Made by a program: the position numbers and the translations under genes
Part shown: one piece after another, positions 12,858 to 22,707 of the stretch
Layout: each line of letters opens with the position of its first letter
Position numbering within the stretch: the stretch's first letter is position 1
The notes under the pieces: model-generated
Seen by the model: the letters and a program-made list of their open reading frames with translations, nothing else
Databases searched by the model: none
What the model was told of the DNA's origin: nothing
Source of the DNA: a virus
Virus genome (UHGV): UHGV-0321443
DNA length: 31,784 bases
Strand: one strand, 5' to 3'

Positions 12858-13073
12858 ATGAAATCAATGGACAAAATCTCAACTGGCATTGCCTACGGAA
12901 CATCCGCTGGTAGTGCGGGATACTGGTTTTTGCAGTGGTTGGATCAGGTCAGTCCATCACAGTGGGCTGCGATTGGTGTACTGGGGAGTCTGGTTCTGGG
13001 CTTCCTGACATATCTGACTAACCTGTATTTCAAAATCAGAGAGGACCGTCGTAAGGCTGCACGGGGAGAGTAA
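12858..13073 (+). CDS. S: Pinholin, phage 21 S21 type (class II holin with dual-start motif)
   Basis: 71 aa; [32 protein letters not shown]... matches phage 21 S21 as I recall it; Met1/Met4 dual starts at 12858 and 12867; SD GGAGG. Confidence 0.9.
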
Positions 13074-13077
13074 TTCA

Positions 13078-13428
13078 ATGACTCAAAACTATGAACTGAT
13101 TGTGAAAGGGATCCGCAATTTTGAGAATAAAGTTACGGTAACTTTAGCGTTACGGGACAAAAAACGCTTTGACGGTGAAATTTTTGACCTGGACATCTCG
13201 CTGGACCGTGTTGAAGGTGCCGCGCTGGGGTTTTATGAGGCAGCAGCCAGAAGGAGCATCAGACAGGTCTTCCTGGATGTTGCTGCCGGGTTATGTGAAG
13301 GGGATGAGCAGTCGCCGGAAAAGCGCCCCGTAATTTTAGAGGCGCAGAATGTGTGGATAACCTACAAAGTAAAGCTACCAGGAAGAATTACTGGTTCTCT
13401 GAAGACTCCTCCGGAATCACAACCTTAA
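13078..13428 (+). CDS. Hypothetical protein (116 aa) lying between holin and endolysin
   Basis: Six-frame ORF starting 5 nt after the holin stop; no recognisable motif; possibly related to DUF1327-type genes seen at this position in some E. coli prophages. Confidence 0.45.
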   Translation: MTQNYELIVKGIRNFENKVTVTLALRDKKRFDGEIFDLDISLDRVEGAALGFYEAAARRSIRQVFLDVAAGLCEGDEQSPEKRPVILEAQNVWITYKVKLPGRITGSLKTPPESQP

Positions 13429-13491
13429 GTCACTGACCGGAACAGATAAACCTGTCCGTGGGCAGAAACCGATAAATCCTGATAAATATCC

Positions 13492-14025
13492 ATGAACGCA
13501 AAAATCAGATACGGCCTGTCGGCTGCCGTTCTGGCACTGATTGCCGTCGGTGCGCCCGCGCCTGATATTCTCGACCAGTTTCTGGATGAAAAAGAAGGTA
13601 ACCACACAACGGCATACCGCGATGGTTCCGGCATCTGGACCATCTGTCGGGGTGCCACGATGGTGGATGGAAAACCCGTTTTTCCCGGTATGAAACTGTC
13701 GAAGGAAAAATGCGACCAGGTCAACGCCATTGAGCGTGATAAGGCGCTGGCATGGGTGGAGCGCAATATTAAAGTACCACTGACCGAACCACAAAAAGCG
13801 GGTATCGCGTCATTTTGTCCCTATAACATTGGCCCCGGTAAGTGTTTTCCATCGACGTTTTATAAGCGGCTGAATGCCGGTGATCGTAAGGGGGCATGCG
13901 AAGCGATTCGCTGGTGGATTAAGGATGGTGGGCGCGATTGCCGCATACGTTCAAATAACTGCTATGGGCAAGTTATTCGTCGTGACCAGGAAAACGCATT
14001 AGCCTGTTGGGGGATAGAGCAGTGA
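13492..14025 (+). CDS. R: SAR endolysin (T4-lysozyme-like muramidase with N-terminal signal-anchor-release domain)
   Basis: N-terminal hydrophobic, Gly/Ala-rich segment ([17 protein letters not shown]) followed by a lysozyme-like domain; position between holin and Rz. Confidence 0.8.
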
Positions 14026-14459
14026 GCAGAGTCGCCGCGATTATTTATGCTCTGGTTATCTGCACCATCGTCTGCCTGTCATGGGCTGTTAATCATTACC
14101 GTGATAACGCCATCGCCTACAAAGACCAGCGCGATAAAGCCACATCTATCATCTCTGATATGCAGAAGCGTCAACGTGATGTAGCTGAACTCGACGCCAG
14201 ATACACAAAGGAGCTTGCTGATGCTAACGCGACTATCGAAAGTCTCCGTGCTGATGTTTCTGCTGGGCGTAAGCGCCTGCAAGTCGCCGCCACCTGTGCA
14301 AAGTCAACGACCGGAGCCAGCGGCATGGGCAATGGAGAAAGCCCAAGACTTACAGCAGATGCTGAACTCAATTATTACCGTCTCCGAAGTGGAATCGACA
14401 GGATAACCGCGCAGGTTAACTACCTGCAGGAATACATCAGGACGCAATGCCTGAAATAA
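14022..14459 (+). CDS. Rz: Rz i-spanin
   Basis: [38 protein letters not shown]... closely resembles lambda Rz; GTG start overlaps the endolysin stop (GTGA). Confidence 0.85.
14215..14406 (+). CDS. Rz1: Rz1 o-spanin (lipoprotein), embedded in the +1 frame of Rz
   Basis: Signal peptide with lipobox (LLGVSAC) followed by a Pro-rich segment ([13 protein letters not shown]); wholly inside Rz as in lambda. Confidence 0.7.
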
Positions 14460-14660: not shown

Positions 14661-15158
14661 ATGAAATCATTAACCCTCTTCAATCAACCAATTCGTATCG
14701 GTGAAGATGGCATGATCTGCCTCACTGATATGTGGAAAGCCAGTGGTAAAAGTGAATCTGAATCGCCTTACCACTACCTGCGAAACAAGCAGACCAAAGA
14801 GTTCTTAGCCGAGCTGGAGAAAAACCACGAATCTGTGGTTTTTACTGAGCGCGGTGTACACGGTGGAACATATGGCGGGAAGTTTGTTGCTTATGATTAT
14901 GCAGCATGGCTAAACCCCGGATTTAAATATGCAGCCTATAAAGTCCTGGATGACTACTTCACCGGAGAACTTCAGCATCGCAACAGCTTAAGTGCGCAGC
15001 TCAATATGAAGTGTCATGAGTTTGATCAGAAAAAAGATATGGCGAGCTTCTGTGGACAAGGGCTGGCGGCATGGCGCTATACGAAGCCAGTGTTGGTCGC
15101 TGAGATTAACTCCCTGGCTAACCAGCTGCAGATAACGATCCCCGGGCTTCCGGGATGA
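14661..15158 (+). CDS. KilA-N domain protein
   Basis: N-terminal region resembles KilA-N DNA-binding domains; lies between the lysis-cassette terminators and cos, so probably a moron with its own promoter. Confidence 0.5.
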   Translation: MKSLTLFNQPIRIGEDGMICLTDMWKASGKSESESPYHYLRNKQTKEFLAELEKNHESVVFTERGVHGGTYGGKFVAYDYAAWLNPGFKYAAYKVLDDYFTGELQHRNSLSAQLNMKCHEFDQKKDMASFCGQGLAAWRYTKPVLVAEINSLANQLQITIPGLPG

Positions 15159-15412
15159 GTGATCGTGTCATTGAATGCGCTTCCAGAGCGGGGCGCGACT
15201 TCTCAGAGTTCATGAAAGGCGAGAAGGGCATGATGGAAGCATTGGCCTCGGTGGATGAGTTTGGCGAGCAGCTGCGCCTCAACGGCTGTGTCAATCATCA
15301 CTTTGTTAGCTACATGATGCGGAACTCGATCATGCAGGCATTCATGGACATGGCAAAAGCCGAGAGGAAAGAAGAGCGCCGGCGTAAGCGAGCGGAAGCA
15401 AAAGCGAAATAG
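15155..15412 (+). CDS. Hypothetical protein (85 aa), translationally coupled to the KilA-N gene
   Basis: ATGA overlap with the upstream stop; highly charged C-terminus (RKEERRRKRAEAKAK). Confidence 0.4.
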   Translation: MSDRVIECASRAGRDFSEFMKGEKGMMEALASVDEFGEQLRLNGCVNHHFVSYMMRNSIMQAFMDMAKAERKEERRRKRAEAKAK

Positions 15413-16235
15413 CCATTACAAAGCCCATCTACGGGTGGGTTTGATAATGGCTTATACCCTGCACGGGATAACTTAACTGATATCCCTTTTAACGGATAAA
15501 CGGAGCCAACAATGGCAGAGAATGTCGGCATTATGGCAGTGAAATTTGGATAAATCGGGGATTAGAAAGATAGAGGCGAGCCGGTCAGGTAGAAATGAAT
15601 CAGGCTCAAAGTGAAGCGGAAAAGGTCTGTGGCACAAACTGATGCTGCCATAATTACAGCCTGATGACTTGTGGAATGAAACATGTTGAACCTCCTTAAT
15701 TGATGTGATTCGAGTGAGGAAGGCATTCTGTCCTTCTATAGTGTCCAGTAAATCAAACAGGAAGCTTGTCTCACGTGTGAGACAAGCCTCTCCATTAGCG
15801 AGTTGTATTGATTACAACTCTTCAAAGAGTTCATTACTGGGTAGATGAAAATAGTTTCACGACGAATGGAGGAGACTATGTCGGTGGCTTCTTCATTGGA
15901 GTACATATGCTCCCTCGAACCTCAAAAGCATGCCGAGTTCGCGGCTGCCGCCATACCACCACAGATCCGTCAGGCTATTGCAAAAGCCACAAAAGCGAAG
16001 GCTGGAAGCAATACAAGCCGGGCCAGTCCTGTCATCAGCGCGGTTATGGTTCGCGAGGTTGTCCCTCATGCTCGCCAGTCCTGTGCGGGGGTGGAAGAAA
16101 CAGGACACTCACACAGATTCTTGTGGGTCGATGCTATTCCTTTCTGGATTATCCCGATGCCATTCATGCAAGGGCTGTATAAGACGTTCGTCATGGCTGT
16201 CAGGCTGACGGGTCCTCCCGGTGGGGTGGCCTGCC

Positions 16236-16255
16236 ACGGGGCGGGAGCGTCGCGG
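16236..16255. promoter_or_regulatory. Candidate cosN-like cohesive-end site, with cosB-like repeats extending to about 16420
   Basis: acggggcgggagcgtcgcgg resembles the lambda cosN context (acggggcggcgacctcgcgg, from memory), differing in the central 6 nt; downstream tttttgcat and gttcg(a/c)ac repeats precede the Nu1-like gene. Confidence 0.4.
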
Positions 16256-16424
16256 AAAAAGGCTAGTTTTTGCATTTTTATCGGCCACCATCATCTTTGC
16301 ATCTTATTGATTATTAATGGTTATTTGTTTTTTGCATGTCGAATTGAGTGTTTTTTGTTCGACATCGAACGCGTTTTCTTAAAGTTGTTCGCACGATGCA
16401 TGTTTAAAGCTCTCCGGAGGAAAT

Positions 16425-16916
16425 ATGGATCATGAGTTGAAAAACCTGGTGCTGAATATTAATCAACTGGCGGCTTTATCTGGTCTGCACCGCCAGACTG
16501 TCGTGGCAAGACTGAAAAACATTCGTCCCGCTGGTGGACATGACAAACTCAAGCTATACCGGTTGACCGATATTCTGACTGAATTTATGGGGTTACCACC
16601 GCCGGTTGCTGAGGGCGAAATGGATCCACATGAACGCAAAGCCTGGTATCAGTCTGAACGTGAGCGTCTTAAGTTCGAACAGGAAACGGCACAACTCATT
16701 CCGGCCAGTGATGTCAGACGGGAGTTTGCCATCTGGGCAAAAGCGGTCGTGCAGGTGCTGGAGACATTACCGGATATTCTGGAACGTGACTGCGGTCTGC
16801 AGCCTGCCGCTGTGAGCCGTGTTCAGTCCATTATTGATGATCTGCGCGATCAGATAGCCCTGCGGGTGACCGAAGCAGGTGCGGATGATGAGGAGGAATT
16901 ACAGCAGGAGGAGTAA
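16425..16916 (+). CDS. Terminase small subunit (Nu1-like)
   Basis: N-terminal helix-turn-helix (NINQLAALSGLHRQTVVARLKN) analogous to Nu1; SD GGAGGA; directly upstream of the large subunit with TAATG overlap. Confidence 0.7.
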   Translation: MDHELKNLVLNINQLAALSGLHRQTVVARLKNIRPAGGHDKLKLYRLTDILTEFMGLPPPVAEGEMDPHERKAWYQSERERLKFEQETAQLIPASDVRREFAIWAKAVVQVLETLPDILERDCGLQPAAVSRVQSIIDDLRDQIALRVTEAGADDEEELQQEE

Positions 16917-19018
16917 TGCTGAATCAGGAAACCGCAAAGGCAGCACGAACCGATTCAGGTTATATCCTTCGCGCACCGAGACGAATGCGGGTTGCTGATG
17001 CCGTTGCTCAGTATATGCGGGTGCCCATGGGGGCAGGGAACTCAGTCCCGTGGGATCCGCTGGTGGCACCGTATGTTATTGAGCCGATGAACTGCCTGGC
17101 CTCGCGTGAATACGACGCAGTGATATTTGTTGGCCCGGCACGAACCGGCAAGACTATCGGCCTGATTGACGGCTGGGTGATTTACAACGTGATTTGCGAT
17201 CCTGCTGATATGCTGATCATTCAGATGACGGAGGAAAAAGCCCGCGAACACTCCAAAAAACGACTTGCCAGAACGTTTCGCGTCAGCCCGGAAGTGGTCA
17301 GTCGCCTGAGTCCGAACAAAAATGACAACAACGTTTATGACAGAACATTCCTTGCTGGTAACTACCTGAAAATCGGCTGGCCGTCAGTCAATATCATGTC
17401 CTCATCAGATTATAAATGCGTCGCGCTGACGGATTATGACCGTTTTCCGGAAGATATTGATGGCGAGGGGGATGCTTTCTCTCTTGCCTCAAAACGTACC
17501 ACCACATTTATGTCCAGTGGTATGACGCTGGTGGAGAGTTCCCCCGGCAGGGATGTGAAGGATGTGAAATGGCGACGGACTTCACCGCATGAGGCTCCAC
17601 CAACCACGGGGATCCTGTCGCTCTATAACCGTGGTGATCGCCGTCGCTGGTACTGGCCCTGTCCACACTGTGGTGAGTATTTTCAGCCCTGCGGCGATGT
17701 GGTTGCTGGTTTCCGTGATATTGCCGATCCCGTGCTGGCAAGTGAGGCGGCTTATATTCAGTGTCCTTCCTGTTCAGGACGGATTATGCCTGAACAAAAA
17801 CGTGAGCTGAACGGACGTGGGGTCTGGTTGCGGGATGGTGAATCCATCAATGCGGATGGCAGTCGTTATGGTGATCCCCGACGCTCACGTATTGCGTCAT
17901 TCTGGATGGAGGGTCCGGCAGCTGCTTACCAGACACTCTCGCAACTCGTTTACAAACTGCTTACTGCAGAACAGGAATACGAGACAACCGGAAGTGAAGA
18001 AACACTCAAGACGGTTATCAATACCGACTGGGGATTACCTTATCTTCCCCGCGCCAGCATGGAGCAACGAAAAAGTGAACTGCTTGAGCAGCGGGCAGAG
18101 CCAGTTCCTTCCCGCAGTGTGCCGGATGGCGTTAATTTCCTTGTGGCGACAGTGGATGTGCAGGCGGGACGTCATCGCCGTTTTGTGGTTCAGGTAACGG
18201 GCTATGGCAGCCGTGGCGAACGCTGGATTATTGATCGTTACAACATCACGCAGTCATTGCGCGGTGACAGTGACGGGGAGAGCCAGCGAATTGATCCGGC
18301 CAGCTATCCGGAAGACTGGGATGTCCTGCTGACGGATGTTTTTCATAAAAGCTGGCCGCTGGCCTCCGATCCTTCTCAACAAATGCGACTGATGGCAATG
18401 GCGGTGGACTCCGGCGGTGAAGACGGGGTCACTGATAATGCCTATAAATTCTGGCGTCGTTGCCGTCGTGATGGCCTTGGTAAACGTATTTACCTGTTTA
18501 AGGGCGACAGCATCCGGCGCGCAAAACTGATCACCCGTACATTCCCTGATAACACCGGACGAACGGGCCGACGGGCGCAGGCCGCAGGTGATGTGCCGCT
18601 CTGGCTTCTTCAGACGGATGCACTGAAAGACCGGGTGAATAACGCGTTATGGCGTGACTCGCCAGGTCCCGGCTATGTGCATTTCCCTGACTGGCTGGGG
18701 AGCTGGTTTTACGACGAACTGACGTATGAAGAGCGGAGCAGTGACGGGAAATGGAGTAAGCCGGGTCGCGGTGCCAACGAAGCTTTTGACCTGATGGTGT
18801 ATGCCGAGGCTCTGGTCATTCTGCATGGATACGAAAAGATCCGCTGGCCGGATGCACCGGAGTGGGCGAGCCGGGAAACCTGGCTGGAGTGTGTCCAGGA
18901 CAGTACCGAACCGTCATCCTCACCGGAACCGGTATCCACGCCTGTTAAAAAACAAAAACGGAAGAAAACAGTAACTGACGATGTTAACCCCTGGCTGACT
19001 TCCGGAGGATGGTTATGA
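16916..19018 (+). CDS. Terminase large subunit (lambda gpA family)
   Basis: 700 aa; Walker A GPARTGKT; CPHCGE motif as in lambda gpA. Confidence 0.9.
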   Translation: MLNQETAKAARTDSGYILRAPRRMRVADAVAQYMRVPMGAGNSVPWDPLVAPYVIEPMNCLASREYDAVIFVGPARTGKTIGLIDGWVIYNVICDPADMLIIQMTEEKAREHSKKRLARTFRVSPEVVSRLSPNKNDNNVYDRTFLAGNYLKIGWPSVNIMSSSDYKCVALTDYDRFPEDIDGEGDAFSLASKRTTTFMSSGMTLVESSPGRDVKDVKWRRTSPHEAPPTTGILSLYNRGDRRRWYWPCPHCGEYFQPCGDVVAGFRDIADPVLASEAAYIQCPSCSGRIMPEQKRELNGRGVWLRDGESINADGSRYGDPRRSRIASFWMEGPAAAYQTLSQLVYKLLTAEQEYETTGSEETLKTVINTDWGLPYLPRASMEQRKSELLEQRAEPVPSRSVPDGVNFLVATVDVQAGRHRRFVVQVTGYGSRGERWIIDRYNITQSLRGDSDGESQRIDPASYPEDWDVLLTDVFHKSWPLASDPSQQMRLMAMAVDSGGEDGVTDNAYKFWRRCRRDGLGKRIYLFKGDSIRRAKLITRTFPDNTGRTGRRAQAAGDVPLWLLQTDALKDRVNNALWRDSPGPGYVHFPDWLGSWFYDELTYEERSSDGKWSKPGRGANEAFDLMVYAEALVILHGYEKIRWPDAPEWASRETWLECVQDSTEPSSSPEPVSTPVKKQKRKKTVTDDVNPWLTSGGWL

Positions 19019-19227: not shown

Positions 19228-20735
19228 TGGCAATTCTTGATGATGTGATTGGCGTTTTTTCACCTGGATGGAAAGCGGCAAGGCTGCGTTCCCGTGCGGT
19301 GATCCAGGCTTATGAAGCCGTAAAAACGACGCGGACACACAAAGCCCGACGGGAGAACCGAACTGCCGACCAGCTAAGCCAGTACGGGGCCGTGTCGTTA
19401 CGTGAGCAGGCCCGTTACCTTGATAACAACCACGATCTGGTTATTGGTGTATTTGACAAGCTGGAAGAACGGGTGGTGGGGAAAAACGGGATTATTGTCG
19501 AGCCACATCCGGTATTACGCAATGGGGCCATTGCCCGTGATCTGGCAGCGGAGATTCGCACCCGATGGAGTGAATGGTCTGTCAGCCCGGAAGTCACCGG
19601 GCAGTTTACCCGTCCGATGCTGGAACGTCTGATGCTGCGTACCTGGCTGCGCGATGGTGAGGTGTTTGCCCAGATGGTTTCCGGGCGCATAAACAGCCTG
19701 ACGCCTTCTGCCGGTGTTCATTTCTGGCTGGAGGCGCTCGAGCCGGACTTTATTCCCATGACCAGTGATGAGAGCAACAGGCTGAATCAGGGCGTGTTTG
19801 TTGATGACTGGGGGCGTCCCGAAAAATATCTGGTGTATAAAAGCCGTCCCGTATCCGGACGGCAGATGGAAACCAAAGAAGTGGATGCAGAGCGAATGCT
19901 GCATCTTAAATTTGTTCGCCGTCTGCACCAGATACGCGGGACGTCTTTGTTGTCCGGTGTGCTGATCCGCCTCAGTGCCCTGAAAGATTATGAAGATTAT
20001 GAGCTGACTGCAGCAAGGATCGCCGCTGCTCTGGGGATGTACATCCGCAAAGGCGACGGGCAGAGCTATGAACCGGATGGTAATGGCAGCAAGGATAAGG
20101 AACGCGAGCTTACCATTCAGCCAGGCATTATTTACGACGATCTGAAACCCGGCGAAGAAATCGGAATGGTGAAGTCGGATCGCCCCAATCCTAACCTTGA
20201 AACTTTTCGTAATGGTCAGTTGCGTGCCGTGGCGGCGGGCAGTCGTCTGAGTTTTTCCAGTACAGCGCGCAACTATAACGGCACTTACAGCGCCCAGCGC
20301 CAGGAGCTGGTTGAATCTACTGATGGCTACCTGATCCTGCAGGACTGGTTTATTGGTGCCGTCACCCGCCCGATGTATCGTGCCTGGCTGAAACAGGCTG
20401 TGGCATCCGGTGTTATCAGGCTACCCCGCGATCTTGACCGTTCTTCACTGTATACCGCGGTGTATTCCGGACCAGTGATGCCGTGGATTGACCCTGTTAA
20501 GGAGGCTGAGGCCTGGAAAATCCAGATTCGTGGTGGAGCGGCGACAGAATCAGACTGGGTACGTGCTGGTGGTCGTAATCCGGATGATGTCAAACGTCGG
20601 CGCAAGGCCGAAATTGATGAAAACCGCAAGCTGGATCTGGTATTTGATACCGATCCGGCCAGTGATAAAGGAGGCAGCAGTGCCGCAACGAAACGACAGG
20701 AGCCGCAGCACACCGACGACCAGTCCGAAGAATAA
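19227..20735 (+). CDS. Portal protein (lambda gpB family)
   Basis: About 500 aa immediately after the W-like gene; start overlaps its stop (TGATG). Confidence 0.8.
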   Translation: MAILDDVIGVFSPGWKAARLRSRAVIQAYEAVKTTRTHKARRENRTADQLSQYGAVSLREQARYLDNNHDLVIGVFDKLEERVVGKNGIIVEPHPVLRNGAIARDLAAEIRTRWSEWSVSPEVTGQFTRPMLERLMLRTWLRDGEVFAQMVSGRINSLTPSAGVHFWLEALEPDFIPMTSDESNRLNQGVFVDDWGRPEKYLVYKSRPVSGRQMETKEVDAERMLHLKFVRRLHQIRGTSLLSGVLIRLSALKDYEDYELTAARIAAALGMYIRKGDGQSYEPDGNGSKDKERELTIQPGIIYDDLKPGEEIGMVKSDRPNPNLETFRNGQLRAVAAGSRLSFSSTARNYNGTYSAQRQELVESTDGYLILQDWFIGAVTRPMYRAWLKQAVASGVIRLPRDLDRSSLYTAVYSGPVMPWIDPVKEAEAWKIQIRGGAATESDWVRAGGRNPDDVKRRRKAEIDENRKLDLVFDTDPASDKGGSSAATKRQEPQHTDDQSEE

Positions 20736-20748
20736 TTCCTGGTTCAGG

Positions 20749-22707
20749 ATGCAGGCTGGTCACCAGAGTGACGCGGATATTTATATTTATGACGAGATTG
20801 GTTTCTGGGGTGTTACAGCGAAGCAGTTTATCAGTGATCTGAATGCACTGGGCGATATCACCCACATTAATCTCCATATCAATTCACCGGGTGGCGATGT
20901 CTTTGAAGGCATCGCCATTTTTAATGCGCTGAAAACACATGGTGCGTCCATTACCGTTTATGTCGACGGTGTGGCGGCGTCAATGGCGTCGGTCATTGCG
21001 ATGGTGGGAAACCCGGTCATTATGCCGGAAAACACCTTCATGATGATTCATAAACCATTTGGCTTTACGGGCGGTGATGCGGAGGACATGCGCACCTATG
21101 CCGACCTGCTCGATAATGTTGAGGCGGTTCTGTTACCCGCTTATGCACAGAAAACCGGGAAAACCACCGATGAAATTGCTGCCATGCTGGCGGATGAGAC
21201 CTGGATGTCCGGTGCCGAATGTCTGGCACATGGATTTGCTGATCAGGTGACGCCAGCCGTTAAGGCAATGGCATGTATTCAGTCAAAACGTACAGAGGAA
21301 TTTAAAAAGATGCCGGAATCCATTCGAAACATGATTACTCCGCCACGCAACAGTGCTCCACGCGTACAGGATGATGAACCTGCAGCCTCCCGGACGCCAG
21401 TGCAGGCAGCAGCACCCGTGGTGGATGAAAACAGTATCCGTGCGCAGGTACTGGCAGAGCAAAAAGCGCGTGTAAACGGTATTAATGATCTGTTTGCCAT
21501 GTTTGGCGGGCGTTATCAGACGCTGCAGGCTCAGTGTCTTGCCGATCCTGAATGTTCGCTGGAGCAGGCCCGCGAAAAGCTGTTGAACGAGATGGGGCGC
21601 GAGTCCACGCCATCCAATAAAAATACACCGGCTCATATTTATGCCGGTAACGGTAATTTTGTGGGGGACGGGATCCGCCAGGCGCTGATGGCGCGTGCCG
21701 GATTTGAAAAAACCGAACGTGATAATGTCTACAACGGGATGACCCTGCGTGAATATGCCCGTATGTCACTGACTGAACGGGGTATTGGGGTTTCCAGTTA
21801 TAACCCGATGCAGATGGTCGGTGCGGCGTTCACACACAGTACGTCTGACTTCGGTAATATTCTGCTGGATGTTGCGAACAAAGCCATTCTGCAGGGCTGG
21901 GAAGATGCTCCTGAAACCTATGAACAGTGGACGCGGAAAGGTCAGTTGTCTGATTTTAAAATTGCCCATCGTGTGGGTATGGGGGGCTTCAGTGCTCTGC
22001 GTCAGGTGCGTGAAGGGGCGGAATATAAATACGTCACCACCGGAGATAAACAGGCCACTATTGCACTGGCGACCTATGGCGAGCTGTTCAGTATCACCCG
22101 TCAGGCCATTATCAATGATGATCTGAATATGCTGACCGATGTCCCGATGAAACTGGGCCGTGCGGCGAAATCCACTATTGCCGATCTGGTTTATGCCATT
22201 CTGACGTCTAACCCGAAAATCTCCACAGATAATGTAAGTCTGTTCGATAAAGCGAAACATGCAAACGTACTGGAGAGCGCTGCAATGGACGTGGCATCGC
22301 TGGATAAAGCCCGCCAGTTGATGCGCGTTCAGAAAGAGGGGGAGCGTCATCTGAATATTCGTCCTGCGTTCGTACTGGTACCGACGGCGATGGAGTCTGT
22401 TGCTAACCAGGTCATTCGCTCCTCAAGTGTCAAGGGGGCTGACATTAACGCCGGTATTATTAACCCGGTGAAAGATTTTGCGACCGTTATTGCAGAGCCT
22501 CGTCTTGATGATAACAGCCAGACCACCTTCTACCTGGCTGCGTCAAAAGGCTCCGATACGATTGAAGTGGCTTATCTCAACGGTGTGGATACGCCATATA
22601 TTGATCAGATGGAGGGCTTCAGTGTGGATGGCGTGACAACGAAAGTGCGTATTGACGCCGGTGTCGCGCCAGTTGATCACCGCGGTCTGGTGAAATGTAC
22701 GGCGTAA
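20749..22707 (+). CDS. Prohead protease (ClpP/S49-like) fused in one ORF to a scaffold/major-capsid-like C-terminal region
   Basis: N-terminal IYIYDEIGFWGV...INSPGGDVFEGIAIFNAL...ASMASVIAMVG is a ClpP-like serine protease signature; long C-terminal region is in the major-capsid position. Confidence 0.7.
   Translation: MQAGHQSDADIYIYDEIGFWGVTAKQFISDLNALGDITHINLHINSPGGDVFEGIAIFNALKTHGASITVYVDGVAASMASVIAMVGNPVIMPENTFMMIHKPFGFTGGDAEDMRTYADLLDNVEAVLLPAYAQKTGKTTDEIAAMLADETWMSGAECLAHGFADQVTPAVKAMACIQSKRTEEFKKMPESIRNMITPPRNSAPRVQDDEPAASRTPVQAAAPVVDENSIRAQVLAEQKARVNGINDLFAMFGGRYQTLQAQCLADPECSLEQAREKLLNEMGRESTPSNKNTPAHIYAGNGNFVGDGIRQALMARAGFEKTERDNVYNGMTLREYARMSLTERGIGVSSYNPMQMVGAAFTHSTSDFGNILLDVANKAILQGWEDAPETYEQWTRKGQLSDFKIAHRVGMGGFSALRQVREGAEYKYVTTGDKQATIALATYGELFSITRQAIINDDLNMLTDVPMKLGRAAKSTIADLVYAILTSNPKISTDNVSLFDKAKHANVLESAAMDVASLDKARQLMRVQKEGERHLNIRPAFVLVPTAMESVANQVIRSSSVKGADINAGIINPVKDFATVIAEPRLDDNSQTTFYLAASKGSDTIEVAYLNGVDTPYIDQMEGFSVDGVTTKVRIDAGVAPVDHRGLVKCTA

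What the first reader, a model, noticed from the sequence alone, without database searches (positions are those of the whole stretch)
15800..16424. cos-like site with central-sequence differences from lambda cosN, inside a GC-rich stretch with overlapping ORFs and a possible HNH remnant
The sequence acggggcgggagcgtcgcgg (16236..16255) matches the lambda cosN flanks but differs in the central 6 nt, implying different cohesive ends. Downstream repeats (tttttgcat three times; gttcgaca/gttcgcac) resemble cosB terminase-binding sites. Upstream, one frame encodes CRVRGC...YCKSHK...QRGYG, like the N-terminal half of a small phage HNH endonuclease, but the C-terminal half is missing, suggesting a decayed gene.
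Basis: partly seen in the sequence, partly recalled or inferred. Interest (0 to 1): 0.4.

Follow-up and report, generated by a model that had tools for sequence, protein, structure and literature searches.

The report
Ordinary prophage cos site, HNH fossil
This is the normal DNA-packaging cut site (cos) of a lambda-like E. coli prophage, with a cohesive-end sequence that already begins the deposited genomes of phages cdtI and Tritos, and just upstream lies the dead first third of an HNH nuclease gene left by recombination; both are real but ordinary.

Summary
Both observations are real. The sequence at 16236-16255 is as quoted. It sits in a full lambda-type cos: cosQ GGGTCCT (16210-16216), 22 nt, then CG|GGGCGGGAGCGT|CG (overhang 16239-16250), 187 bp before a small terminase gene (DUF1441, 16425-16916) and a gpA-type large terminase gene (16916-19018). 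The overhang differs from lambda at positions 7, 8, 9 and 11, the half of cosN already reported to vary naturally. The GenBank records of phages cdtI and Tritos are cut exactly at 16238|16239 and start with this 12-mer. Plaque-forming phages PhiR40_1, PhiR47_1 and PhiR55_1 match the query 100% over 16196-16275; PhiR40_1 is identical from cosQ to the terminase start. In 80 related prophage loci, cosQ, cosN and the next 22 bp are nearly invariant while the flanks vary.

The probable terminase and IHF sites are a CACCATCATC element, an IHF-like site and an inverted ATGTCGAA/TTCGACAT pair, at lambda-like positions.

The HNH remnant (15907-16056) is codons 1-50 of an SfI/SfIV-type HNH gene. The catalytic domain is absent in every frame, and RefSeq already annotates it as a truncated pseudogene. 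The overlapping ORFs are non-coding. Interest is low: this is already known.

The parts
15600..16053 (+). Segment about 85% identical to the right end of Shigella phage SfIV: the intergenic region plus the 5' part of its HNH gene. Relative to mEp460-type relatives, window 15501-16038 replaces about 110 nt.
15907..16056 (+). HNH endonuclease pseudogene. It holds codons 1-50 only (the Cys/His-rich N-terminal region). The HNH catalytic domain, residues 66-112 in SfIV gp54, is absent.
   Evidence: tblastn, 43/50 identical, E 5e-33, nothing for residues 51-116. Pfam HNH at residues 66-112 of SfIV gp54, no hit in the window ORF. RefSeq annotates the same sequence as 'HNH endonuclease, incomplete, missing C-terminus'; 158 phage records match this N-terminus; all but two of the 40 listed are annotated HNH or homing endonuclease, or unannotated.
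16039..16053 (.). Recombination joint. The 15-nt CGCGGTTATGGTTCG is shared by the SfIV-like left segment and the mEp460/PhiR40_1-like right segment.
   Evidence: the two alignments overlap here; homology ends at 16039-16048 in 55 of 80 related loci.
16054..16209 (.). Non-coding spacer left of cosQ. The ORFs 15808-16182, 15845-16435 and 15930-16208 that cross it are chance ORFs.
   Evidence: diversity 0.097/0.097/0.095 at the three codon phases; lengths 153-162 among relatives; no Pfam hits.
16210..16216 (+). cosQ (GGGTCCT), identical to lambda cosQ. It is the packaging-termination signal, 22 nt before the top-strand nick (23 nt in lambda).
   Evidence: diversity 0.006. Role of cosQ from PMC4669245 and PMC9026076.
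16237..16252 (+). cosN: CG|GGGCGGGAGCGT|CG. Inferred nicks are on the top strand at 16238|16239 and on the bottom strand at 16250|16251. They would give 12-nt 5' cohesive ends with the sequence GGGCGGGAGCGT (16239-16250).
   Evidence: The cdtI and Tritos records are cut at 16238|16239. The yong2 record starts at the equivalent of bp 13.
16251..16272 (+). Nearly invariant block CGCGGAAAAAGGCTAGTTTTTG (bp 13-34), between cosN and the first terminase site.
   Evidence: diversity 0.002 for bp 18-34..
16286..16295 (+). R3-like element CACCATCATC (bp 48-57), the inferred main small-terminase binding site. Lambda R3 lies at bp 50-65.
   Evidence: a CAYCATC element at bp 43-57 in 9 of 10 family members with otherwise diverged cosB. 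Lambda R3 position from PMC9026076.
16300..16312 (-). IHF-like site (AATCAATAAGATG on the minus strand). It has one mismatch to WATCAANNNNTTR; mEp460, CP-1639, Chris1 and cdtI have perfect matches starting at bp 61-64.
16336..16343 (-). R2-like element in inverted orientation (ATGTCGAA, bp 98-105).
   Evidence: 8-nt perfect inverted repeat with 16358-16365; conserved at bp 97-101 across the family.
16358..16366 (+). R1-like element TTCGACATC (bp 120-128).
16385..16394 (+). TTGTTCGCAC, a second copy of the TTGTTCG motif. It is conserved in the window and mEp460 subgroups but absent from relatives with a shorter cosB. Its role is unknown.
16425..16916 (+). Small terminase subunit (DUF1441 family), with an N-terminal helix-turn-helix. 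It has no BLASTP similarity to lambda Nu1.
   Evidence: PF07278, 4.6e-44..
16916..19018 (+). Large terminase subunit of the lambda gpA family (ATPase plus endonuclease domains), 25% identical to lambda gpA.
   Evidence: PF05876, 8.6e-72; PF20454, 1.1e-85..

Best explanation
Region 16210-16424 is the working cos site of a lambdoid E. coli prophage whose packaging and head module is of the mEp460/cdtI/Gifsy-2 type.

Inferred mechanism, by analogy with lambda:
1. The DUF1441 small terminase binds the R-like elements in cosB: CACCATCATC at bp 48-57, inverted ATGTCGAA at bp 98-105, and TTCGACATC at bp 120-128. IHF bends the DNA at bp 62-74.
2. This positions the gpA-type large terminase to nick at 16238|16239 on the top strand and 16250|16251 on the bottom strand.
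3. The result is 12-nt 5' cohesive ends of sequence GGGCGGGAGCGT.
4. cosQ (16210-16216) is used when packaging ends at the next cos.

The four differences from lambda (positions 7, 8, 9, 11) fall in the half of cosN that lambda-type terminases tolerate, so they change the sticky-end sequence but not the mechanism.

The 150-nt HNH fragment upstream (15907-16056) is a non-functional fossil. DNA from an SfI/SfIV-type phage, which carries an HNH gene next to its own cos, was joined at 16039-16053 to the DNA that lies about 185 bp left of this lambda-type cos. The HNH catalytic domain was discarded. A gpA-type terminase carries its own endonuclease domain.

Shown here: the sequence features, their conservation, the domain content and the mosaic joint. 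Inferred: the nick positions, the protein-DNA contacts, and that this particular prophage is active.
For: Architecture: cosQ, spacing, CG flanks and overhang positions 1-6 are identical to lambda. The pattern is unique in the window, with 0 of 100 shuffles matching.

Genes: the terminase genes follow directly, with the small terminase ATG at bp 187 against 191 in lambda. The large terminase has both gpA ATPase and nuclease domains.

Conservation: 69 of 80 related loci fit the pattern cosQ-N19/20-CG|12-mer|CGCGG, and 60 of them carry exactly GGGCGGGAGCGT. Nucleotide diversity is 0.006 in cosQ, 0.016 in cosN plus flanks and 0.002 in bp 18-34, against 0.107 to the left and 0.185 in the rest of cosB. 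In 12 loci homology to the window starts at cosQ, and in 3 more just before cosN.

Phage records: cdtI and Tritos end ...GCCACG and begin GGGCGGGAGCGTCGCGG. The yong2 record begins at CGCGG, just after its 12-mer. The Ayreon virion-DNA assembly is scrambled exactly at cosN.

Viable phages: PhiR40_1, PhiR47_1 and PhiR55_1 have an identical small terminase and match 100% over 16196-16275. PhiR40_1 is identical from cosQ to the terminase ATG. All three are used as infective phages in bioRxiv 10.1101/2025.11.03.685801.

Literature: positions 7-12 of cosN vary naturally (Gifsy-1 at 8, 9, 11; N15 at 9, 12) and such changes do not impair lambda terminase, while cosQ and the CG flanks are conserved (PMC4669245). 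The order R3-I1-R2(inverted)-R1 is typical of lambda-like phages (PMC9026076). LLS and mEp213, from the same small-terminase family, have an inferred overhang GGGCGGCGCGCT (PMC12315714).

cosB elements sit at conserved distances across diverged relatives. Residues G20, H22, R23, T25 and R29 are invariant in the seven aligned small terminases.

HNH.
Against: No virion-end data exist for this prophage or, to my knowledge, in any text I could read for this exact 12-mer. The cdtI paper (Asakura 2007) and the cosN survey (Vahanian 2017) are not held, so the cdtI and Tritos record boundaries may have been set by homology to lambda rather than by experiment.

The large terminase is only 25% identical to lambda gpA, and the small terminase has no detectable similarity to Nu1. 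Nick positions are therefore extrapolated across a large protein distance.

The R-site assignments are comparative inference only. The cdtI cosB lacks these motifs.

Whether this prophage is inducible was not tested.
Confidence: 0.88

Rival explanations
1. The site is an inert relic. The prophage is defective and this cos is no longer cut, so the sequence differences from lambda reflect decay.
For: Inducibility of this prophage was not tested. Some related prophages do carry likely damaging changes, for example cosQ GGCTCCT in 8 loci and IS-disrupted copies.
Against: The window's cosQ, cosN and cosB are identical to those of the plaque-forming phage PhiR40_1. The terminase genes are full-length with complete domains. 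The 'differences' are the majority allele in this family, in 60 of 80 loci, and are under visible constraint.
Confidence: 0.07
2. The tttttgcat repeats (16267, 16294, 16329) are the small-terminase binding sites.
For: There are three same-strand copies of TTTGCAT within 70 bp inside cosB. One copy abuts the R3-position element.
Against: The repeats are missing in the mEp460 subgroup, where they read TTTTTGAAA, CTACTGTAA and TTTTTATGG, despite 87% identical small terminases with the same invariant N-terminal residues. The third copy reads TTTGTAT in several members of the window's own subgroup. The 9-mer is not enriched window-wide in T-rich DNA. Other elements are conserved at fixed positions across the family.
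Confidence: 0.1
3. The 91-codon ORF that starts with the HNH N-terminus (15907-16182), or the 196-codon ORF 15845-16435, encodes a functional protein, for example a zinc-ribbon regulator or terminase accessory factor.
For: The Cys/His-rich N-terminal 50 residues are intact and start with ATG. Relatives carry annotated 'hypothetical protein' or 'late gene regulator' CDSs over the equivalent stretch.
Against: There are no family hits. Downstream of residue 50 the frame is not conserved: single-base indels against PhiR40_1 and mEp460, lengths 153-162, and no codon periodicity. Only 5 of 80 loci with this cos carry the fragment. RefSeq calls it a pseudogene. The Ayreon CDS spans a misassembly.
Confidence: 0.03

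Closest known systems
Phage lambda cos (cosQ-cosN-cosB) with terminase Nu1/gpA
   Same: cosQ GGGTCCT is identical. The CG flanks and overhang positions 1-6 are identical. The overhang is 12 nt. The order of the sites is the same: R3-position element, IHF-like site, inverted element, direct element. The terminase genes lie directly downstream. The large subunit has gpA ATPase and nuclease domains.
   Different: Overhang positions 7, 8, 9 and 11 differ. The cosQ-to-nick spacer is 22 nt instead of 23. The R-element sequence is different. The small terminase is DUF1441, with no BLASTP match to Nu1. The large terminase is only 25% identical to gpA.
Phages cdtI (AB285204/NC_009514) and Tritos (OV696610)
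   Same: The records begin with GGGCGGGAGCGTCGCGGAAAAAGGCTAGTTTTT and end with GGGTCCT-N20-CG. That is the same cosQ, cosN and first 33 bp, cut at the window's 16238|16239. Their small terminase is also DUF1441.
   Different: Their small terminase is only 42% identical, and cosB beyond bp 34 is unrelated. The DNA upstream of cosQ differs and has no HNH fragment.
Phages PhiR40_1/PhiR47_1/PhiR55_1 and mEp460
   Same: The PhiR phages have a 100% identical small terminase and match 100% over 16196-16275; PhiR40_1 is identical from cosQ to the ATG. mEp460 is 86% identical over 16039-16399, with overhang GGGCGGGAGCGG.
   Different: They lack the SfIV-like insert with the HNH fragment; homology to the window starts at 16039.
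Gifsy-1, Fels-1, N15 and LLS/mEp213 cosN variants (natural variation of cosN, Feiss laboratory)
   Same: The variation is confined to overhang positions 7-12, with cosQ and the flanks kept. [quoted passage not shown] Fels-1 reads GGGCGGCAGCGG. LLS reads GGGCGGCGCGCT.
   Different: The window adds a change at position 7 (C to G).
HK97 gp74-type HNH packaging accessory proteins (SfI, SfV, SfIV gp54, ST64B)
   Same: Residues 1-50 are 84-90% identical to the N-terminus of these proteins, and the fragment sits in the same place, just upstream of cos.
   Different: The HNH domain is missing. The neighbouring terminase is gpA-type, which has its own endonuclease domain. That HNH proteins assist HK97-type terminases is from my own knowledge of Kala et al. 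2014 (PNAS); I did not read it here. HK97 itself did not appear among the listed hits.

Membership tests
lambda-like cos site (12-nt 5' cohesive ends; cosQ-cosN-cosB) | cosN with conserved CG flanks and the left half GGGCGG of a 12-bp overhang sequence | tested here: met
   CG|GGGCGGGAGCGT|CG at 16237-16252. Positions 1-6 and both flanks are identical to lambda.
lambda-like cos site (12-nt 5' cohesive ends; cosQ-cosN-cosB) | 7-bp cosQ about 20-25 bp upstream of the top-strand nick | tested here: met
   GGGTCCT at 16210-16216, 22 nt before the nick (lambda 23). It is invariant in 71 of 78 informative related loci.
lambda-like cos site (12-nt 5' cohesive ends; cosQ-cosN-cosB) | cosB with repeated small-terminase sites and an IHF site between cosN and the small terminase gene | tested here: inconclusive
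   Motifs are conserved at bp 48-57, 62-74, 98-105 and 120-128 across diverged relatives, in the lambda order and orientation. No binding data exist.
lambda-like cos site (12-nt 5' cohesive ends; cosQ-cosN-cosB) | Adjacent gpA-family large terminase with an endonuclease domain | tested here: met
   PF05876 (8.6e-72) and PF20454 (1.1e-85). BLASTP to lambda gpA gives E 5e-19 at 25% identity.
lambda-like cos site (12-nt 5' cohesive ends; cosQ-cosN-cosB) | Virion DNA actually ends in 12-nt 5' overhangs at this site | not testable with these tools
   Only indirect support: the cdtI and Tritos records are cut at this position, the yong2 record starts at bp 13, and the Ayreon assembly breaks at cosN.
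HNH endonuclease (Pfam PF01844), phage packaging-associated type | HNH catalytic domain (beta-beta-alpha metal finger) | tested here: not met
   There is no Pfam or NCBIfam hit in the window ORF. In SfIV gp54 the domain is at residues 66-112, and the window retains only residues 1-50. No frame matches residues 51-116.
HNH endonuclease (Pfam PF01844), phage packaging-associated type | Homology to the N-terminal Cys/His-rich region of SfI/SfIV-type HNH proteins | tested here: met
   43 of 50 residues identical to SfIV gp54 (E 5e-33), and 90% identical to the SfI homologue.

The most novel reading that the evidence does not exclude
The joint at 16039-16053 records a swap of the whole packaging system. 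A phage with an HNH-assisted, HK97/SfV-type terminase had its cos-proximal end fused to a lambda/gpA-type cos-terminase-head module, and the now useless HNH gene was cut in two. Separately, the right-half cosN alleles (here GGGCGGGAGCGT) may act as a mild compatibility barrier between co-resident lambdoid prophages, because mismatched cohesive ends lower phage yield about fourfold (PMC4669245). Neither idea is excluded by my evidence, and neither was tested.
Probability: 0.15. Interest if true: 0.3.

Novelty: already known. Interest (0 to 1): 0.12.

Why it matters
It matters little beyond correct annotation. It fixes the genome ends (16238|16239 and 16250|16251) and the predicted sticky-end sequence for a very common family of E. 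coli prophages: part of the 801-nt query matches in 3039 of 5426 complete genomes. It gives a comparative map of the likely DUF1441 small-terminase and IHF sites that could guide packaging or cosmid-type experiments. It also flags misassembled or oddly cut phage records at this cos, namely Ayreon and mEp460_4F5. The HNH fragment is a tidy example of mosaic recombination at a packaging-module border.

Tried and rejected
1. Full-text search for the 12-mer GGGCGGGAGCGT found only an unrelated mammalian promoter paper.
2. Vahanian et al. 2017 (the cosN survey) and Asakura et al. 2007 (phage cdtI) are not held. I could not confirm whether the cdtI ends were determined experimentally.
3. The Tritos paper says nothing about termini.
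4. Scanning IMG/VR for contigs that begin at the 12-mer, as a proxy for physical ends, gave 120+ internal matches and none at a contig start; most are prophages in isolate genomes.
5. Scanning species-representative genomes for the 19-mer CGGGGCGGGAGCGTCGCGG gave 92 hits. Only E. coli and E. ruysiae are plausible. Most of the rest are in Streptomyces and other high-GC genomes or environmental MAGs, presumably chance matches, and were not examined.
6. I looked for a shifted-frame C-terminal half of HNH in the window, mEp460, PhiR40_1 and 4F5. There is none.
7. I considered that mEp460-type DNA left of the joint is itself an older HNH relic. It has no protein similarity.
8. An Rfam scan of 15300-16500 gave only a sub-threshold chance hit to a human lncRNA model.
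9. Pfam and NCBIfam gave nothing for the overlapping ORFs or for the 40-aa minus-strand ORF.
10. The sigma-70 promoter scan of 15400-16500 found none.

Full report
**Context.** The window is a lambdoid E. coli prophage. Reading rightwards it holds lysis genes (12858-14459), a KilA-N protein (14661-15158), the region of the finding, a small terminase of Pfam family DUF1441 (16425-16916), a large terminase with the gpA ATPase and gpA nuclease domains (16916-19018), and then a W-like gene and the portal gene. A cos site is therefore expected just left of 16425.

**Check of the observation.** The quoted 20-mer is at 16236-16255. I fetched the lambda ends and joined them.
- Lambda reads GGGTCCT-N21-CG|GGGCGGCGACCT|CGCGG.
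- The window reads GGGTCCT-N20-CG|GGGCGGGAGCGT|CGCGG.

cosQ (16210-16216), both CG flanks and overhang positions 1-6 are identical. Positions 7, 8, 9 and 11 differ. The composite pattern occurs once in the window and in none of 100 shuffles. The distance from overhang base 1 to the terminase ATG is 187 bp, against 191 in lambda.

The repeats are present, but 'tttttgcat three times' is really two exact copies plus TCTTTGCAT. The HNH-like frame is real. The local GC rise to 0.55-0.64 and the drop to 0.34 in cosB are real.

**Is it a functional, conserved element?** I collected 80 IMG/VR loci that encode relatives of the small terminase.
- 69 fit the pattern cosQ-N19/20-CG|12-mer|CGCGG, and 60 of them carry exactly GGGCGGGAGCGT. 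The remaining variants differ at position 7, 11 or 12.
- Of the other 11 loci, eight differ only by a cosQ change to GGCTCCT, one by a right-flank change, one by position 6, and two are IS-disrupted.
- In an alignment of 63 distinct sequences, nucleotide diversity is 0.006 in cosQ, 0.016 in cosN plus flanks and 0.002 in bp 18-34. It is 0.107 in the 156 bp to the left, 0.076 in the cosQ-cosN spacer and 0.185 in the rest of cosB.
- In 12 loci homology to the window begins exactly at cosQ, and in 3 just before cosN. Mosaic boundaries therefore hug the functional unit.

**Evidence on real ends.**
- The GenBank records of phage cdtI (AB285204/NC_009514) and phage Tritos (OV696610) end ...GGGTCCTTCCGGTGGGGTGGCCTGCCACG and begin GGGCGGGAGCGTCGCGGAAAAAGG. 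They are cut at the window's 16238|16239 and carry the same 12-mer.
- The record of Hafnia phage yong2, from the same terminase family, begins at CGCGG immediately after its 12-mer.
- The Ayreon assembly, made from virion DNA and gap-filled (PMC5764929), is scrambled exactly at cosN. It even contains a stray piece of the small terminase gene.
- The mEp460_4F5 record is cut 5 nt left of the nick and lacks 2 nt inside cosN.
- PhiR40_1, PhiR47_1 and PhiR55_1 have an identical small terminase and match 100% over 16196-16275. PhiR40_1 is identical from cosQ to the ATG. All three are used as infective phages.

I could not read the cdtI paper, so whether those ends were measured or set by homology remains open.

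**Literature.** Feiss and colleagues define lambda-like phages by 12-nt 5' ends related to lambda's. They state that differences at overhang positions 7-12 are common (N15 at 9 and 12; Gifsy-1 at 8, 9 and 11). Such changes do not measurably affect cos cleavage, and cosQ and the CG flanks are conserved (PMC4669245). The window allele equals the Gifsy-1 pattern plus a change at position 7. LLS and mEp213, which share the DUF1441 small terminase, have an inferred overhang GGGCGGCGCGCT (PMC12315714; record feature). A dedicated survey exists (Vahanian et al. 2017, cited) but is not held. The 'different cohesive ends' are thus a known kind of natural variation.

**cosB.** The literature gives the typical order as R3-I1-R2(inverted)-R1 (PMC9026076). 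I compared the cosB of the window with those of mEp460, VT1-Sakai, CP-1639, Fels-1, mEp213, LLS, yong2, Chris1 and Gifsy-2. Despite heavy divergence, they share:
- a direct CAYCATC-type element at bp 43-57 (window CACCATCATC, 16286-16295);
- an IHF-consensus site starting at bp 61-64 on the minus strand (window 16300-16312, one mismatch; perfect in four relatives);
- an inverted element at bp 95-107 (window ATGTCGAA, 16336-16343);
- a direct element at bp 117-129 (window TTCGACATC, 16358-16366).

Residues G20, H22, R23, T25 and R29 in the N-terminal helix-turn-helix region are invariant across the seven aligned small terminases, which fits a shared core site. I therefore do not regard them as the binding sites. 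Only 'gttcgaca' coincides with a conserved element. These assignments are inference.

**The HNH remnant.** Window 15600-16053 is 85% identical to the right end of Shigella phage SfIV, up to codon 49 of its HNH gene gp54. Window 16039-16500 is 98% identical to PhiR40_1, and 16039-16399 is 86% identical to mEp460 up to the end of that record. The two alignments overlap in the 15-nt CGCGGTTATGGTTCG.
- At the protein level, 15907-16056 matches residues 1-50 of gp54 (43/50, E 5e-33). Nothing in any frame matches residues 51-116.
- Pfam places the HNH domain of gp54 at residues 66-112 and finds nothing in the window ORF. NCBIfam agrees.
- The same N-terminus matches 158 phage records. All but two of the 40 listed are annotated HNH or homing endonuclease, or unannotated; those I checked (SfI, SfV, SfII, SfIV, ST64B) lie at the right end of the record.
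- RefSeq already annotates the identical sequence in strains EC9682, N32 and E10 as an incomplete HNH (or DUF8602) gene missing its C-terminus.
- Only 5 of the 80 loci with this cos carry the fragment. Most have about 110 nt of other DNA in place of window 15501-16038.

The gene was therefore truncated by recombination, not eroded by mutation. The adjacent gpA-type terminase has its own nuclease domain.

**Overlapping ORFs.** The ORFs at 15808-16182, 15845-16435, 15930-16208 and those on the minus strand have no family hits. Between 16054 and 16209 the substitutions are spread equally over the three codon phases, and the length varies from 153 to 162 nt among relatives. Annotated 'hypothetical' or 'late gene regulator' CDSs in mEp460, PhiR40_1 and Ayreon run across cosN or across a misassembly. 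I regard the stretch as non-coding.

**Comparison with lambda proteins.** The large terminase is 25% identical to gpA over 623 residues (E 5e-19). The small terminase has no BLASTP match to Nu1. The site works like lambda cos and meets its sequence-level defining features. The physical ends and the protein-DNA contacts remain inferred.

**Verdict.** The cos allele, the cos type and the HNH pseudogene are all already present in public records and annotation, and the variation is a described phenomenon. Interest is low.

Noticed in passing
window 15761-15790 and 15802-15822: Two adjacent strong hairpins. The minus-strand RNA 15850->15730 folds at -39.8 kcal/mol (z = -4.66). The 13-bp stem followed by a T-run looks like a minus-strand intrinsic terminator. 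The SfIV homologue keeps the stem through two double, compensatory changes (GTCTCAC/GTGAGAC to GTCCAAC/GTTGGAC).
   Followed up: partly
window 15563-15685, minus strand: A 40-codon ORF (MFHSTSHQAVIMAASVCATDLFRFTLSLIHFYLTGSPLSF) with AAGGAGG 7 nt upstream of its ATG. It is about 85% conserved at the DNA level in SfIV, unannotated there, and has no Pfam hit. It lies just downstream of the hairpins on the same strand.
   Followed up: partly
L099 (Ayreon MF807953, last ~300 nt); L004/L010 (mEp460_4F5 LR595868 ends): The Ayreon record has a roughly 190-nt scrambled insert exactly at cosN, including a duplicated piece of the small terminase gene. The mEp460_4F5 record lacks 2 nt inside cosN and is cut 5 nt left of the predicted nick. 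Both look like assembly artefacts at physical genome ends.
   Followed up: partly
L014, L016, L029, L032, L033, L034, L046 (and similar), upstream of the small terminase gene: Eight of 80 related prophage loci carry GGCTCCT instead of the otherwise invariant cosQ GGGTCCT. These prophages may be defective in packaging termination.
   Followed up: no
L095 (VT1-Sakai), L096 (CP-1639) and Stx2 phage records: Their cosN region reads CG-GGGCGGGCGG(G)-CGCGG. There are apparently only 10-11 nt between the conserved flanks, so the overhang length or the nick positions may differ in Stx-phage relatives.
   Followed up: no
window 20488-22707: A 739-codon ORF right after the portal gene. It may be a fused prohead protease-major capsid gene, as described for Gifsy-2-type heads (mentioned in PMC12315714). 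Not tested.
   Followed up: no
window 16206-16210 and 16235 (breakpoints seen in L018, L041, L042, L048, L051, L052, L054 and others): In 12 related loci homology to the window begins exactly at cosQ, and in 3 just before cosN. Recombination joints cluster at the edges of the functional cos.
   Followed up: partly
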